Part shown: positions 52,909-55,414 of the stretch, in pieces
How the letters are laid out: each line of letters starts with the position of its first letter
Numbering within the stretch: the first letter of the stretch is position 1
Assembly: GCA_038245295.1 (NCBI GenBank)
Contig: JBBRSP010000001.1
Location: 128,001 to 192,000, forward strand
Length of the DNA: 64,000 bases
Reading direction: 5' to 3'
Origin: Candidatus Binatia bacterium
GTDB taxonomy: Bacteria; Desulfobacterota; Binatia; HRBIN30
Notes under the pieces: model-generated
The model's database searches: none
Told to the model about the DNA's origin: nothing
Seen by the model: the letters and a program-made list of their open reading frames with translations, nothing else
Made by a program: the position numbers and the translations under genes

Positions 52909-53357
52909 GCCCCCAGCCTCCGCCGCGCTTCGGCCCGCAGGCTGGCGAGCTCGGCGTCGTCGATGTTGCGGACGACGTAACGATCCCCCGAGCTCAGGTT
53001 GGCGACGACATGTGCTTCGATGTCGACGCGCAGGCGGTCGCCGTGTTTGATGGCGCCGGTTTCCTCGATGATCAGCGCCGGCAGGCCAAGCTGCAGTGCC
53101 TGGCGCAGGAACTGCACGCCGAAGCTCCTGGCGATCACAGCGGCGATGTGGCGGGTGTTCAACGCGGCGATGGCGCGGCGCTGCTCGGCATCGGTGGCAA
53201 ACGAAAGTCCGGCCACCAGGAAGTCACCAACCGCGATATCGCTGGCGAACGAAGGCTGAAGAATCTCATCGCTGCCGATGTTGTCGCCGCAGCAACAGGC
53301 GCGACCATTCATTGCCAGCAGAGAGTCCTCGTCGGCGCGCAGATCTTCGTACTTCAT
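52905..53357 (-). CDS. Degenerate aconitase swivel / LeuD-like protein
   Basis: GRA..GDNI.SDEI, GDFLVAG..F, AVIARSF, GLP; lacks GSSRE. Confidence 0.65.
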   Translation of the reverse strand: MKYEDLRADEDSLLAMNGRACCCGDNIGSDEILQPSFASDIAVGDFLVAGLSFATDAEQRRAIAALNTRHIAAVIARSFGVQFLRQALQLGLPALIIEETGAIKHGDRLRVDIEAHVVANLSSGDRYVVRNIDDAELASLRAEARRRLGA

Positions 53358-53438
53358 CGCTGCTGCTGACTAGTTCAGGCGGCAGGCTGGGGACAAGGGG
53401 CGCGCGTCGCAGCAGGACGATTCGCGAATCGCGTCCAT

Positions 53439-53515
53439 CACGGCAGAGGCGCCGACAGCGCGGCGCTGCGAAAACCATTGACCGAGTTCTCTGCGACCTC
53501 GGCGTCTCTGCGGTG
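53439..53515. repeat. Imperfect inverted repeat of the CGCAGAG/CTCTGCG class
   Basis: CACGGCAGAGGCGCCGACAGCGCGGCG versus the reverse complement of CTCTGCGACCTCGGCGTCTCTGCGGTG. Confidence 0.55.
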
Positions 53516-53591
53516 CTCCCGCCCGCTGCCGCCGCGGTGCACCGAAGAATCGACGGATCGCGGCCGAGTCGCGTCGCAAAAAATTCTCGAC

Positions 53592-53612
53592 GATTATCGT
53601 ATTACGATAATC
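53592..53612. promoter_or_regulatory. Perfect AT-rich palindrome, candidate operator
   Basis: GATTATCGTA-T-TACGATAATC. Confidence 0.55.
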
Positions 53613-53814
53613 TTTCTTCTGGCCACATTAAAAAAAACGTGATACGGGATTTCTCGATTGGTTCGAGGTCGACACAGGCCTCCTGGCCGCAGACAGCTTA
53701 ATGGTAGGCTGCCAGTGGTGAACCAAGCTGGATGCCGGCAGTCGGCGGCCGGTGTCTGGTGGTGGGTTGGGGCCCGCCCTCGGTTTCGGCGCCGAGAAAG
53801 GAGGTGGTCCAGCG

Positions 53815-53856
53815 ATGATGATCCCTACGGCGAGCTGTGAGGTGGTGACCCCTTAG
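53815..53856 (+). CDS. Candidate 13-aa small ORF MMIPTASCEVVTP
   Basis: ATG 10 nt after GGAGG of an exceptionally long SD; stop codon in a TGACC/GGTCA hairpin. Confidence 0.4.
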   Translation: MMIPTASCEVVTP

Positions 53857-54034
53857 GTCAGTACATTGGGCGACGAGTTTCGCGCTCCATCGTGCCGGCA
53901 GGCGACCGCTGCCTTGCGGTTCCGGTCAACGCCTGTGCTGGTGACACGAGTGACGAATCCTCAGACGAGGTGAGAGAAATCCACTAACCGTCAATCGTAC
54001 CGATGTTTCGCCTGGGGAACCCAGGCGCCATCGC

Positions 54035-54101
54035 CCCCAGGAGCTTCCCGCGATATCGCCCGCGGGGCGGCCAAGCCGTAAACAGCTCCTGGGGATTTTT
54101 T
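54035..54101 (+). terminator. Terminator-like branched stem plus U tract
   Basis: CCCCAGGAGCT (54035-54045) pairs with AGCTCCTGGGG (54084-54094), encloses two small hairpins and is followed by ATTTTTT. Confidence 0.6.
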
Positions 54102-54253
54102 ATCTCCGCCCGTGCCCCCGCCCATGCCCGCTCTCCCATCCGGCTCTGAGCAAAACCGAGCGGCTCGACGAACCTCCAAACGTCCGCCACATGGTCCCCA
54201 TGAATTGAACCAACGCGGGCGTCTGCTTATAAGGAGCGCCCCGGAGGAGAGTT

Positions 54254-55414
54254 ATGCCCAAAGCGTATGCCATTACCGCGGCGGCGATCGCCGCGGAGCG
54301 TAAGCGTGTAAATGACGACCTGGAAAAGGTCGACGTCTCGCGCATCATCCACTTGGACGACGTGCAATTGCGGCCGCTCGGTAAGAGCGACGTTCATATG
54401 CGTGTTCTGGCGGTATCCGCCGAGCACAATATCGAGCACGCGGCGCTGGCCGATACGGTGAACATCGCCGAAGCGCGCGGCGGCAAGATGTACCCGGGCA
54501 ACAGCGCCCTGGGCGAAGTGTTGGCGGTGGGTGAATCGGTCAAGCGCTTCAAGGCCGGCGACATTGTCATCACCCATTGCAACGGCGAGCCCGATCGTTT
54601 CGGTTACCCGATGCGCATTTGGGCCTACGACCAGCCCGACTCGATCGGCTGGTACGGCGAGGAGGCGGTTGTCGGTGACTGGCAACTCATCCCCGCGCCC
54701 CTGAAGTGCGGCCTGAACTTGTGGGAGATCGCCGCGCTGCCGCTACGCGCCCCGACGGCCTATCATCTGTGGCGCCGCGCCCACGGCATCTATCGGCTCA
54801 AGGTCTCGCTGGAGCGTCAGGCGCGTCTCAACGTGCTCGGTTTCGGCGGCGGCGTCTCGGAGCTCTTCCTGATGCTCGCCAAGGCCGAAGGCCACCAGGC
54901 GTTCTTTTGCTCGGGCAGCCCGGAGCGTCGCGATTTCCTGGCCAAGCAGGGCATCACGCCGATCGACCAGAAGAAGTTCAATCGCTTCGCCAAGAGCGAC
55001 GACGTGCGTGCCTTCAGCAAGGAGATCAAAAAGCTTACGAACGGCGAAGGCATGCACCTGGTGTGCGACATGTTGCGCGGGCCGGTGTTTGAGGCCGGCG
55101 TAACCGCCCTCGGCCGCCAGGGTGTCAACGTCAGCGCCGGTTGGCAGCTGGCGCGTGAGTGTACCTACAACTCGGCCGGCTTGTCGGTGAAGCAGATCAC
55201 CCTCGACCATACGCATTACGACACCGTCGATGGCGCCAACGCGTGCACCGATCTCTACGGTAACGTCTTCAAGCCGACGATCCATAAAGAGATCTACGCC
55301 TTCGCCGACCTGCCGCGCTGCTTCGACGAGATGCAGCGCAACACGCAGACCGGAATTCCGATCGTGCGCGTCGCCGAGCGTATGCCGGCGGCTGTCGAGG
55401 CGCTTTGTTCCTAG
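54254..55414 (+). CDS. Zinc-independent MDR oxidoreductase, divergent crotonyl-CoA reductase/carboxylase-like
   Basis: GEVLAVGESVKRFKAGDIVITHCN, RIWAYDQPD, PTAYHLW, VLGFGGGV; GGAGGAG RBS. Confidence 0.75.
   Translation: MPKAYAITAAAIAAERKRVNDDLEKVDVSRIIHLDDVQLRPLGKSDVHMRVLAVSAEHNIEHAALADTVNIAEARGGKMYPGNSALGEVLAVGESVKRFKAGDIVITHCNGEPDRFGYPMRIWAYDQPDSIGWYGEEAVVGDWQLIPAPLKCGLNLWEIAALPLRAPTAYHLWRRAHGIYRLKVSLERQARLNVLGFGGGVSELFLMLAKAEGHQAFFCSGSPERRDFLAKQGITPIDQKKFNRFAKSDDVRAFSKEIKKLTNGEGMHLVCDMLRGPVFEAGVTALGRQGVNVSAGWQLARECTYNSAGLSVKQITLDHTHYDTVDGANACTDLYGNVFKPTIHKEIYAFADLPRCFDEMQRNTQTGIPIVRVAERMPAAVEALCS

What the first reader, a model, noticed from the sequence alone, without database searches (positions are those of the whole stretch)
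53717..54101. Candidate structured RNA complementary to several conserved segments of 16S rRNA
Seen in sequence, compared with the consensus 16S sequence from memory (reverse complement of the 3' end: AGAAAGGAGGTGATCCAGC-CGCAGGTTC-CCCTACGGC-TACCTTGTTACGACTTCACCCC). Positions 53795-53813 read AGAAAGGAGGTGGTCCAGC, an 18/19 match whose single difference still pairs as G:U. Nine unmatched nt follow (GATGATGAT), then CCCTACGGC (53823-53831) in exact register, then a weaker match ending ACCCC. Further downstream, in colinear order: TTGCGG (53914-53919), GACACGAG-TGACGA (53943-53956; 14/15 with one gap against the complement of 16S ~1060-1075, helix 34/35) and CCGTCAAT (53988-53995; 16S ~919-926, not significant alone). 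Three consecutive hairpins (53728-53759, 53761-53778, 53779-53796) contain seven G:U pairs that form only on the plus strand. An extended -10-like motif precedes the segment and a stem plus U6 ends it. Inference: this is a ~390-nt plus-strand RNA able to pair with 16S far beyond an ordinary Shine-Dalgarno. The duplex would compete with helix 45 and leave the KsgA-methylated A1518/A1519 stretch unpaired opposite the AUGAUG. Possible roles are 30S sequestration, a 30S maturation chaperone or sensor, or a ribosome-protected stable RNA. I cannot assign it to a family I know (no tmRNA, RNase P, SRP or 6S hallmarks).
Basis: partly seen in the sequence, partly recalled or inferred. Interest (0 to 1): 0.9.

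Follow-up and report, generated by a model that had tools for sequence, protein, structure and literature searches.

The report
Ribosome-docking mini-mRNA with giant Shine-Dalgarno
This is a real, separately made and intricately folded RNA of about 440 bases whose core pairs with the whole tail of the ribosome's 16S RNA and carries a 13-codon reading frame; it is an enlarged relative of small RNAs already catalogued in other bacteria, whose job is still unknown.

Summary
The core observation holds. Window 53795-53813 is the longest complement to the 16S 3' tail in the whole 6.6-Mb genome, at 19 pairs. CCCTACGGC at 53823-53831 lies in register with the reverse complement of 16S. The three matches further downstream are chance.

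An ATG 2 nt after the complement opens a 13-codon frame, which is kept in every relative examined (85 of 85 and 27 of 27). The element also belongs to a known kind. Actinobacterial homologues score above the cut-off of Rfam RF02471 (Ms_IGR-5), and intermediates from other phyla score 24-35 bits. A profile of 27 Ms_IGR-5 hits finds only this site in the window (E 3.8e-6). The window itself does not reach the Rfam model.

The closest studied analogues are the alphaproteobacterial rreB/rreR mini-mRNAs, which bind 30S and have no known function (PMC5711450).

This copy, from a Binatia-like genome, is an enlarged form with a covarying 5' domain, a variable insert and a branched terminator. It also has a second 16S-complementary block that remains unexplained.

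Earlier notes of this scan report the same kind on other DNA more than ten times.

The parts
53619..53648 (+). Likely promoter: an A/T-rich run, a -35-like CTGGCC (53619-53624) and a -10-like TACGGG (53643-53648), 18 nt apart
   Evidence: The upstream regions of 19 relatives show the same layout, (C/G)TGGAC-like then TAnnnn. The consensus scan found no sigma-70 site, so this part is inferred.
53655..54101 (+). The whole transcript, about 440 nt; the 5' end is approximate (+/- 5)
   Evidence: Conservation and covariation start at 53658. The terminator T-run ends at 54101. Contigs in RNA libraries of two studies span 53667-54043 and 53892-54100 (weak hint only).
53658..53760 (+). 5' domain: helices P1 (53658-64 with 53720-26), P2 (53686-98 with 53707-19) and P3 (53727-39 with 53748-60)
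   Evidence: Pairs with changes on both sides: 4 of 7 in P1, 8 of 11 in P2 and 11 of 11 in P3. This domain is absent from the actinobacterial members.
53790..53832 (+). Closing helix CGCCG (53790-94) with CGGCG (53828-32), enclosing the Shine-Dalgarno and the start codon in a 33-nt loop
   Evidence: RNAalifold. 98.9% of cells are paired, but there are only one-sided changes (G-C 10, G-U 9), so it is compatible and not proven.
53795..53813 (+). SD1: a 19-nt complement of the 16S 3' tail (AGAAAGGAGGTGGTCCAGC)
   Evidence: The core GGAGGTGRTCC is present in all 19 aligned relatives and in every family member examined.
53815..53856 (+). Micro-ORF of 13 codons plus TAG (MMIPTASCEVVTP)
   Evidence: An in-frame start and stop are kept in 85 of 85 unique motif- or BLAST-found cores and in 27 of 27 covariance-model-found actinobacterial loci.
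53823..53831 (+). Second 16S-complementary block, CCCTACGGC (complement of the helix 45 5' strand); it is also codons 3-6 and partly the closing-helix strand
   Evidence: No conserved partner within the RNA was found.
53839..53846 (+). SD2: GAGGTGGT, an exact repeat of 53801-53808. Its last G lies 5-6 nt before the last sense codon.
   Evidence: GAGGTG is unchanged in all 19 aligned relatives and in 27 of 27 model-found loci. The stop codon is always 15 nt after its first G.
53847..53859 (+). Small hairpin GACC-CCTTA-GGTC with the stop codon TAG in its loop
   Evidence: One pair covaries: A-U in 10 sequences, G-C in 9.
53860..54009 (+). Variable middle domain, a lineage-specific insert.
   Evidence: Poorly conserved in alignment A1. 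Similarity to 16S is at chance level.
54010..54031 (+). Hairpin H3 (GCCTGGG/CCCAGGC), followed by GCCAT, which is predicted to pair with GTGGT of SD2 (53842-46)
   Evidence: H3 is nearly invariant. The long-range helix is 100% paired, but with one-sided changes only. A naive partner search did not discriminate.
54035..54101 (+). Branched intrinsic terminator: outer stem 54035-45 with 54084-94, inner hairpins Pa (54046-52 with 54061-66) and Pb (54067-71 with 54075-79), T-run 54096-54101
   Evidence: The outer stem has 5 of 11 pairs with changes on both sides. The Rfam Ms_IGR-5 consensus has the same layout.

Best explanation
The element is a stand-alone gene for a small, highly structured, mRNA-like RNA of the 'ribosome-docking mini-mRNA' kind. 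It is an enlarged, distant homologue of the Ms_IGR-5 sRNA family (Rfam RF02471), found here in a Binatia-like genome, and it works like the rreB/rreR small mRNAs of Alphaproteobacteria.

Shown here:
- It carries the strongest possible Shine-Dalgarno: 19 nt that pair with the whole free 3' tail of 16S rRNA and about 3 nt into helix 45.
- A start codon follows 2 nt later, and a 13-codon frame whose start, frame and stop are kept across at least five phyla.
- A second Shine-Dalgarno-like GAGGUGG sits 5-6 nt before the last sense codon, and the stop codon sits in a hairpin loop.
- An ..CCA(U/C) element and a branched terminator follow.

Inferred mechanism:
1. A 30S subunit docks very tightly on SD1, which is exposed in a large loop.
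2. The ribosome translates the short frame, slowly or rarely. Doing so melts the closing helix and the predicted long-range helix between SD2 and the element next to the terminator.
3. At the stop codon, the ribosome's anti-SD can re-pair with SD2 at start-like spacing, which holds it there.

The RNA would thus be a ribosome-gated switch or sensor. Its peptide is probably unimportant, and its downstream output is unknown. My confidence is about 0.85 for the identity and about 0.3 for the mechanistic steps.
For: Family membership:
- Actinobacterial homologues found with my motif score 64.6-79.6 bits with RF02471 (cut-off 45).
- Copies from Methylomirabilales, Thermodesulfobacteriota, Nitrospirae and a 'delta proteobacterium' MAG score 35.0, 34.7, 29.5 and 23.7 bits (E 8.5e-5 to 0.075).
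- An nhmmer profile of 27 model-found actinobacterial members hits the window only at 53793-53845 (E 3.8e-6).

Conservation:
- BLASTN finds the RNA in 22 of 40 relatives, in 3 of 4 families of the order.
Hits were named Binatia, Methylomirabilota, Nitrospirota, Myxococcales and Actinomycetota.

Structure: 72 pairs, 95.1% of cells paired, 30 pairs changed on both sides. 0 of 500 shuffles reach this, and slid controls give 33-46% paired.

Reading frame:
- 85 of 85 unique cores have an in-frame ATG (51), GTG (31) or TTG (3) 1-6 nt after SD1.
- All 85 have a stop (TAG 60, TGA 15, TAA 10) exactly 15 nt after GAG. Frames are 12-15 codons long.
- In 27 loci found by the Rfam model rather than my motif, the stop rule holds in 27 of 27. 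The start is canonical in 17, CTG in 9 and ATA in 1.

Stand-alone gene: Pfam on the flanks of 95 ORFs shows no neighbour shared across phyla, and the downstream gene is often convergent.

Strength of SD1.

Literature:
- Ms_IGR-5 is a validated but uncharacterised sRNA (10.1101/2021.12.14.472595, passages).
- Its homologues give significant ribosome-protected reads in two mycobacteria (PMC4974804, passage).
- rreB co-sediments with 30S, is weakly translated and is destabilised by its start codon (PMC5711450, abstract and sections 13, 18, 19).
Against: - The window and its genome give no match to RF02471 even at E<=10. Membership therefore rests on intermediates and on a sequence profile that is dominated by the two SD-like motifs.
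- The closing helix, the long-range SD2 helix, H3 and Pa have no compensatory changes.
- A naive search for an SD2 partner was as successful with a reversed probe: 92 against 98 of 122.
- 10 of 27 actinobacterial members have only CTG or ATA at the start position, so translation may be weak or dispensable there.
- GAG and GTG never change to synonymous codons, so that part is constrained as RNA and not as peptide.
- No data on translation, 30S binding or phenotype exist for this organism. The RNA-library evidence is contigs only, which cannot show strand, ends or level.
- The role of SD2 at termination is my inference from spacing alone.
Confidence: 0.8

Rival explanations
1. A bipartite antisense RNA to the last 37 nt or so of 16S rRNA. 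SD1 pairs with the tail, and the second block pairs with the 5' strand of helix 45 (and, in relatives, its GGAA loop). Only the 3' strand of helix 45 is left unpaired, opposite the start codon. The RNA would act on subunits whose helix 45 is open or not yet dimethylated, as an assembly checkpoint or chaperone, or would sequester such particles.
For: - The block is in exact register here.
- Its pairing energy beats 200 of 200 shuffles.
- Several Binatia relatives carry a 12-nt TTCCCCTACGGT. This complements the 16S stretch GCCGTAGGGGAA, so only 6 of 37 positions differ from the reverse complement of 16S.
- CTACGG occurs in 22 of 90 unique inter-SD segments. By their record titles these come from at least two phyla, Binatia and Nitrospirota.
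- No partner for the block within the RNA was found.
Against: - The block is absent from 68 of 90 segments, including all Actinomycetota and Methylomirabilota members, so it is not a family feature.
- Four of its nine letters (CGGC) are also the closing-helix strand, and the rest encode Pro-Thr.
- In Nitrospirota the block is displaced by one codon.
- In a canonical initiation complex these codons lie in the mRNA channel, far from helix 45. I say this from recalled knowledge of ribosome structure.
- Helix 45 is a stable GC-rich hairpin, and its two adenines are dimethylated in mature subunits, which blocks pairing (recalled).
- 16S is invariant at these positions, so co-variation with the host rRNA cannot be tested.
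Confidence: 0.1
2. The 13-residue peptide is the functional product, and the RNA features only serve to express it.
For: The frame, start and stop are conserved. The C-terminal part reads ..(C/S/R)-E-V-(V/A)-(A/T)-x in all members.
Against: - The conserved residues coincide with SD2 and the stop hairpin.
- Their codons never vary synonymously (GAG and GTG in 19 of 19 and 27 of 27).
- The one T/A residue change is compensated in the hairpin.
- The N-terminal half is free to vary.
- 10 of 27 actinobacterial copies have non-canonical starts.
- No modifying or exporting gene is a conserved neighbour.
- RreB and RreR peptides share no similarity and are unstructured (PMC5711450, section 18).
Confidence: 0.07
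3. A cis-acting leader or attenuator of the downstream zinc-dependent dehydrogenase gene (54254-55414).
For: The gene lies on the same strand, about 150 nt after the terminator in this window. The layout of leader peptide plus terminator recalls attenuators.
Against: In relatives the dehydrogenase gene is on the opposite strand (L004, L005, L006, L017, L019) or absent, and across phyla the downstream gene differs and is mostly convergent.
Confidence: 0.02
4. A decayed, inverted fragment of a 16S rRNA gene.
For: 34 of 60 in-register identities to the reverse complement of the 16S 3' end.
Against: Similarity is confined to the SD-ORF segment; the other three segments are at chance level. The element is under strong purifying selection, has its own covarying structure, and has been present in single copy across phyla. 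An ancient origin from antisense rDNA cannot be excluded, but that differs from a pseudogene.
Confidence: 0.01

Closest known systems
Ms_IGR-5 (Rfam RF02471, 'Actinobacteria sRNA'). That it was first reported in Mycobacterium smegmatis by Li et al. 2013 I know only from citations in other papers; the paper itself is not held.
   Same: - The same core in the same order: extended SD GGAGGUGRUCC, a start codon 1-6 nt later, a 12-15 codon frame, GAGGUGR with the stop 15 nt after its first G in a hairpin loop, a ..CACC element, then a branched terminator.
- Single copy and stand-alone.
- The profile of its members finds the window.
   Different: - The window does not reach the Rfam model at all.
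- It has a covarying 5' domain of about 140 nt, where actinobacterial members start about 10 nt before the SD.
- It has a variable insert of about 150 nt and a second 16S-complementary block.
- Different phylum.
rreB / rreR 'ribosome-regulated expression' small mRNAs of Alphaproteobacteria (Hahn et al. 2016, RNA Biol 14:1353, PMC5711450; I read the abstract and sections 13, 18 and 19, and ran term searches)
   Same: A stand-alone small mRNA. It has 16-17 nt of perfect complementarity to the 16S 3' end that reaches or touches the start codon, an sORF of 14-18 codons and a conserved RNA structure. The function is unknown. This is the only studied example of the kind (30S co-sedimentation, weak translation).
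   Different: - rreB is 165 nt; this RNA is about 440 nt.
- Sequence homology was not tested here, because I held no rreB sequence.
- The Rfam consensus of the Caulobacter sRNA CC2171 carries the same extended SD plus GUG but no GAGGUGG second motif. The alphaproteobacterial forms may therefore be a separate family of the same kind.
- The paper's text holds none of the terms helix 45, Actinobacteria, Mycobacterium or internal.
CC2171 (Rfam RF01867, Caulobacter sRNA)
   Same: Its consensus begins with ..GAAAGGAGGUGAUCCAGUG, an extended SD running into a GUG start. A Myxococcales member of the present family hits it weakly (25.2 bits, cut-off 75).
   Different: No SD2 and no stop rule are visible in the consensus. 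The window does not match it.
tmRNA
   Same: A structured RNA of similar size with a short internal reading frame. That the stop codon of tmRNA lies in a hairpin loop is recalled knowledge.
   Different: No tRNA-like domain: ARAGORN and Rfam find nothing here. The frame has its own SD and start codon. The genome has tmRNA genes elsewhere.

Membership tests
Ms_IGR-5 (Rfam RF02471) | Scores at or above the curated cut-off (45 bits) with the family's covariance model | tested here: not met
   There is no match at E<=10 in window 53300-54400 or in the whole genome. Actinobacterial homologues score 64.6-79.6 bits, and other phyla 23.7-35.0 bits.
Ms_IGR-5 (Rfam RF02471) | Extended SD GGAGGUGRUCC, with a start codon 1-6 nt downstream | tested here: met
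   Window 53801-53811, ATG at 53815. The same holds in 85 of 85 and 27 of 27 relatives; among the 27, 10 have CTG or ATA as the start.
Ms_IGR-5 (Rfam RF02471) | Second motif GAGGUGR, with a stop codon 15 nt after its first G, in the loop of a small hairpin | tested here: met
   Window 53839-53859. 85 of 85 and 27 of 27. The hairpin covaries.
Ms_IGR-5 (Rfam RF02471) | Sequence-profile homology to bona fide members | tested here: met
   An nhmmer profile of 27 model-found members gives one hit in the 64-kb window, at 53793-53845, with E 3.8e-6. It covers only the SD1-SD2 module.
Ms_IGR-5 (Rfam RF02471) | 3' module: a ..CACC/CCAY element directly before a branched intrinsic terminator | tested here: met
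   Window 54027-54101. The Rfam consensus has cAGuCACCC followed by a terminator with an inner hairpin.
Ms_IGR-5 (Rfam RF02471) | Short form: the transcript starts about 10 nt before the SD, total about 180-210 nt | tested here: not met
   A 5' domain of about 140 nt and an insert of about 150 nt; total about 440 nt.
rre small mRNAs (Hahn et al. 2016) | At least 16 nt of complementarity to the 16S 3' end directly upstream of an sORF | tested here: met
   19 contiguous pairs including one G:U, with the ATG 2 nt later. The 16S sequence is taken from relatives; the genome's own 3' end is not assembled.
rre small mRNAs (Hahn et al. 2016) | Physical binding to 30S subunits, with weak translation | not testable with these tools
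   Shown only for rreB (PMC5711450). For Ms_IGR-5 homologues, ribosome-protected reads are reported (PMC4974804).
rre small mRNAs (Hahn et al. 2016) | Sequence homology to rreB or rreR | not tested
   I held no rreB or rreR sequence. The CC2171 consensus shares only the SD.
tmRNA | tRNA-like domain; match to ARAGORN or Rfam RF00023 | tested here: not met
   Searches find nothing in the window. tmRNA matches lie on contigs C97 and C6.
Leader-peptide transcription attenuator | A conserved regulated gene downstream on the same strand | tested here: not met
   the neighbours differ across phyla, and the downstream ORF is mostly on the opposite strand.
rRNA pseudogene or fragment | Similarity to rRNA along its length | tested here: not met
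   Only 53791-53865 is similar (0 of 300 shuffles reach it). The other segments are reached by 271, 30 and 143 of 300 shuffles.

The most novel reading that the evidence does not exclude
In Binatia and Nitrospirota this RNA has kept, or evolved, near-complete antisense identity to the last 37 nt of 16S rRNA. That covers the tail plus the 5' strand and GGAA loop of helix 45, and the identity is interrupted only where the start codon sits. The RNA would then do more than dock on the free tail. It could invade helix 45 of subunits in which that helix is open or not yet dimethylated, and so read out or assist the last step of 30S maturation. Alternatively, the family descends from an antisense transcript of the rRNA operon. 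Either reading would be a new kind of RNA-rRNA interaction.
Probability: 0.1. Interest if true: 0.85.

Novelty: new variant of a known kind. Interest (0 to 1): 0.45.

Why it matters
Mini-mRNAs with a full-length Shine-Dalgarno are among the most conserved small transcripts of unknown function. They are catalogued piecemeal: Ms_IGR-5 in Actinobacteria, CC2171 in Caulobacter and rreB/rreR in other Alphaproteobacteria. I found no paper that links them, within the limits of the library searches.

This window shows three things:
- The Ms_IGR-5 architecture reaches Binatia, Nitrospirota, Methylomirabilota and Myxococcota, beyond the reach of the Rfam model.
- Its invariant parts are two anti-SD-binding sites placed one ribosome-length apart around a frame whose peptide hardly matters.
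- Some lineages add complementarity to helix 45.

Together these give concrete, testable designs for what the ribosome does on these RNAs. The copy itself is not a new class, and the scan has met the kind repeatedly.

Tried and rejected
- Rfam at gathering threshold on the whole window and at E<=10 on 53300-54400: only chance C/D-box hits at E 1.5-7.3, caused by GATGATGA.
- ARAGORN: no tRNA or tmRNA.
- Consensus promoter scan: no sigma-70 site. The terminator scan missed the branched terminator.
- Laying RNA-library contigs: no contig covers 53200-53666 or 54101-54600. Contigs cannot show ends, strand or level, and no DNA run was laid, so this lack of cover is not used as evidence.
- Phylum-wide motif scan: 12 of 401 genomes match. 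Only 5 of them (G000, G078, G149, G182, G330, all the window's class) show the ORF layout by eye. The reversed control pattern hit 9 genomes, so the other 7 are at background level.
- Viral contigs: 2 hits among IMG/VR contigs, neither with the family's layout. There is no link to phages.
- Search for a partner of the CCCTACGG block within the RNA: none is conserved.
- Search for the SD2 partner by simple complementarity: not discriminating, 98 against 92 of 122 with a reversed probe.
- Test for co-variation with the host 16S: impossible, because the 16S 3' end is identical in the relatives read.
- Literature: the motif and peptide strings occur in no relevant paper. Li et al. 2013 is not held. 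No later bacterial rreB paper is in the library.
- Earlier-findings look-ups by sequence found nothing relevant.
Full report
WHAT IS THERE. Window 53655-54101 (+) is a discrete, structured RNA gene.

The plus strand folds better than shuffles (z -3.18, 0 of 100 shuffles as good). The minus strand does not (z -1.34). BLASTN with 53640-54110 finds one copy in the genome and homologues in 22 of 40 relatives: family f1 10 of 24, f2 4 of 5, f3 0 of 3, f4 8 of 8.

I aligned 19 of these sequences (A1) and tested a consensus structure of 72 pairs.
- 95.1% of cells are paired.
- 30 pairs have changes on both sides.
- 0 of 500 column shuffles reach this.
- Only 33-46% of cells pair when the partners are slid by 1-3 columns.

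Compensatory changes support the three helices of a 5' domain (53658-53760), the small hairpin that holds the stop codon, and the outer stem of a branched terminator (54035-54094, T-run 54096-54101). Four helices are kept but vary on one side at most, so they are compatible and not proven:
- the closing helix around the Shine-Dalgarno loop (53790-94 with 53828-32);
- a predicted long-range helix (53842-46 with 54027-31);
- hairpin H3;
- the inner hairpin Pa.

THE 16S COMPLEMENT. The genome's own 16S is assembled only to about position 641, and no 3' end is present. I therefore used the 3' ends of three relatives from three families of the order, which are identical to each other.

- Window 53795-53813 pairs with the last 19 nt, with one G:U. 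It is the longest such site on both strands of the 6.63-Mb genome. Counts of sites with at least 15, 17 and 19 contiguous pairs are 7, 2 and 1.
- The duplex energy is -37.4 kcal/mol, against -23.6 +/- 2.4 for shuffles (0 of 200).
It is significant on its own: -22.7 against -14.8 +/- 2.2 kcal/mol (0 of 200).
- Everything else is chance. The 5' domain, middle domain and 3' domain align to the reverse complement of 16S no better than 271, 30 and 143 of 300 shuffles.

It is therefore not a decayed rRNA fragment. The claimed contacts with 16S around 1060-1075 and 919-926 fall in a segment that is not even conserved among close relatives.

Two nucleotides after the complement, an ATG (53815) opens a 13-codon frame (MMIPTASCEVVTP) that ends in TAG at 53854-53856.

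I examined 100 loci: 20 found by BLAST and 80 found by a motif scan of one genome per species.
- They collapse to 85 unique cores.
- 85 of 85 have an in-frame ATG (51), GTG (31) or TTG (3) 1-6 nt after GGAGGTGRTCC.
- 85 of 85 have a stop codon (TAG 60, TGA 15, TAA 10) exactly 15 nt after the G of GAGGTGG.
- Frames are 12-15 codons long, although the distance between the two motifs varies.

The motif scan fixed both motifs, so I repeated the test on loci found another way. The Rfam model RF02471 was run over 151 Actinomycetota genomes. It gave 44 matches at E<=0.001 and 20 over the cut-off. Four of the matching genomes are flagged unpublished. Without them the figures are 40 of 147 and 19 of 147, and I analysed no sequence from them.

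In the 27 published loci taken, both motifs are present and the stop rule holds in 27 of 27. The start is canonical in 17, CTG in 9 and ATA in 1.

Three different stop codons at one fixed place, and a start that follows the frame through length changes, argue that ribosomes read this frame. The conserved C-terminal residues are a different matter. They coincide with the second SD-like motif and the stop hairpin. Their codons never change synonymously, and the one Thr/Ala change is compensated in the hairpin. The constraint there is on the RNA, not on the peptide.

IT IS STAND-ALONE. Pfam on 95 flanking ORFs shows dihydroorotate dehydrogenase and a zinc dehydrogenase next to it only within the window's family. 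In several relatives the dehydrogenase is on the other strand. Other phyla have aconitase, Maf, HNH, DeoR, photolyase and others as neighbours. That rules out a leader or attenuator.

Upstream regions of the relatives share an A/T-rich run, a -35-like (C/G)TGGAC and a TAnnnn -10.

Contigs from four RNA libraries of two studies lie on 53667-54043, 53667-53944, 53667-53877 plus 53852-54033, and 53668-53858 plus 53892-54100. Three of these libraries hold only 24-28 million letters. Contigs cannot show strand, ends or level, so I count this as a weak hint of an abundant discrete transcript.

WHAT IT IS. Rfam has nothing for the window, nor RF02471 for the genome. The same search on homologues from other phyla gave a different result.
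- The actinobacterial loci found by my motif (Kribbella, Microlunatus, Cellulosimicrobium and others) hit RF02471, Ms_IGR-5, at 64.6-79.6 bits (cut-off 45).
- Non-actinobacterial loci hit it below the cut-off but significantly. Methylomirabilales scores 35.0 bits (E 8.5e-5), a Thermodesulfobacteriota MAG 34.7, Nitrospirae 29.5 (E 0.0022) and a 'delta proteobacterium' MAG 23.7 (E 0.075).

The Rfam consensus shows the same order of parts as here: extended SD, start, GUGAGGUGG, stop in a hairpin loop..CACCC, and a terminator with an inner hairpin. An nhmmer profile of the 27 model-found members hits the window once, at 53793-53845, with E 3.8e-6.

What the papers say about Ms_IGR-5:
- It is a 'validated but yet uncharacterized' sRNA of M. 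smegmatis, lying between MSMEG_5794 and MSMEG_5795, and is reported as NAD-capped (10.1101/2021.12.14.472595, passages).
- It is RNA-seq-validated in Streptomyces lividans (PMC8079986, passage).
- It is detected as a transcription unit in S. avermitilis (PMC8780764, passage).
- It gives significant ribosome-protected reads in M. abscessus and M. smegmatis (PMC4974804, passage).

After I had reached this point, the scan's earlier notes showed that the same kind had been met more than ten times in other phyla. They also pointed to Hahn et al. 2016 (PMC5711450), which I then read (abstract, sections 13, 18 and 19, and term searches). That paper reports the following about rreB:
- It is a 165-nt mRNA with a 17-nt complement to the 16S 3' end and a 14-codon frame.
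- It sits in the ribosome pellet and co-sediments with 30S.
- It is translated weakly, and is stabilised when its start codon is replaced.
- Its function is unknown.
- Analogues occur in four alphaproteobacterial orders.

The Rfam consensus of the Caulobacter sRNA CC2171 starts with the same extended SD running into GUG, but shows no second GAGGUGG. The alphaproteobacterial forms may therefore be a separate family of the same kind.

HOW IT PROBABLY WORKS.

Shown here:
- SD1 is maximal and lies in a 33-nt loop together with the start codon.
- An exact 8-nt repeat of its core (GAGGTGGT, 53801-08 and 53839-46) lies inside the frame.
- The distance from the second copy to the stop codon is invariant.

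Inferred:
- A 30S subunit docks on SD1 far more tightly than on any other site in the genome.
- Translating the frame must open the closing helix and the helix between SD2 and the CCAY element beside the terminator.
- With the last sense codon in the P site, SD2 ends 5-6 nt upstream. That spacing is typical between an SD and a start codon (recalled knowledge), so the terminating ribosome can re-pair with it.
- The start and the last sense codon are 12 codons apart, which leaves room for one initiating and one terminating ribosome.

I therefore read the RNA as a ribosome-gated switch or sensor whose peptide is a by-product. What it controls is unknown. The rreB authors saw no growth effect of overexpression and argued against simple titration of ribosomes (PMC5711450, section 19).

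WHAT REMAINS ODD. The second block is not a family feature. CTACGG occurs in 22 of 90 unique inter-SD segments, all from Binatia-like or Nitrospirota records (taxa from the record titles), and 15 of 90 beat their shuffles at p<=0.05.

Where it occurs it can be striking. Several relatives read TTCCCCTACGGT, the complement (with one G:U) of GCCGTAGGGGAA in 16S, and it is in register. Only the six letters that hold the start codon then differ from the reverse complement of the last 37 nt of 16S. Part of the block (CGGC) is also the closing-helix strand. I found no other partner for it within the RNA.

This could be functional pairing with an open helix 45, a relic of an origin from antisense rDNA, or lineage-specific chance on top of codon and helix constraints. 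I cannot decide between these and put the first two together at about 0.1.

VERDICT. The element is an enlarged, distant variant, outside the reach of the Rfam model, of a known but unexplained kind of RNA.

Noticed in passing
window 53592-53612: A perfect 10-bp inverted repeat (GATTATCGTA-T-TACGATAATC) followed by a T-rich run lies about 10 nt upstream of the RNA's putative -35. The terminator scan flagged it. It could be a terminator, or an operator for the RNA gene or for the divergent gene. It is not seen in the upstream regions of relatives.
   Followed up: partly
genome contigs C97:1-373 and C6:171886-172263: Two full-length tmRNA matches (179.2 and 154.1 bits), plus a partial one on C128. 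This means either two ssrA genes or a trace of the 3.35% contamination of this assembly.
   Followed up: no
genome contig C30:78204-78861: The only 16S rRNA match stops at about model position 641, at a contig end. No 16S 3' end exists in the assembly, so all pairing tests used relatives' 16S.
   Followed up: yes
L071 (Myxococcales MAG) 611-759 and the Rfam RF01867 consensus: The Caulobacter sRNA family CC2171 begins with an extended SD (..GAAAGGAGGUGAUCCAGUG) and looks like the Caulobacterales rre-type mini-mRNA. Rfam thus seems to hold at least two unlinked families of this kind.
   Followed up: partly
Read-laying run X4, record 6 (window 53829-53858): One RNA-library contig matches only the last 30 nt of the frame. 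Upstream it continues with a different extended SD followed by GTG. This is a second family member, from another organism in the same sample (table 7).
   Followed up: no
L168, L170-L172, L175-L178, L180 (Actinomycetota): Nine of 27 actinobacterial members have CTG, and one (L181) has ATA, exactly where the others have ATG, GTG or TTG. Either these are non-canonical starts driven by the maximal SD, or translation is dispensable in those lineages.
   Followed up: partly
window 53658-53668: The start of helix P1 reads GGTTCGAGG. It is conserved as GG(T/C)(T/C)CGA(G/A) in relatives and resembles a tRNA T-loop motif. The resemblance is recalled knowledge and was not tested.
   Followed up: no
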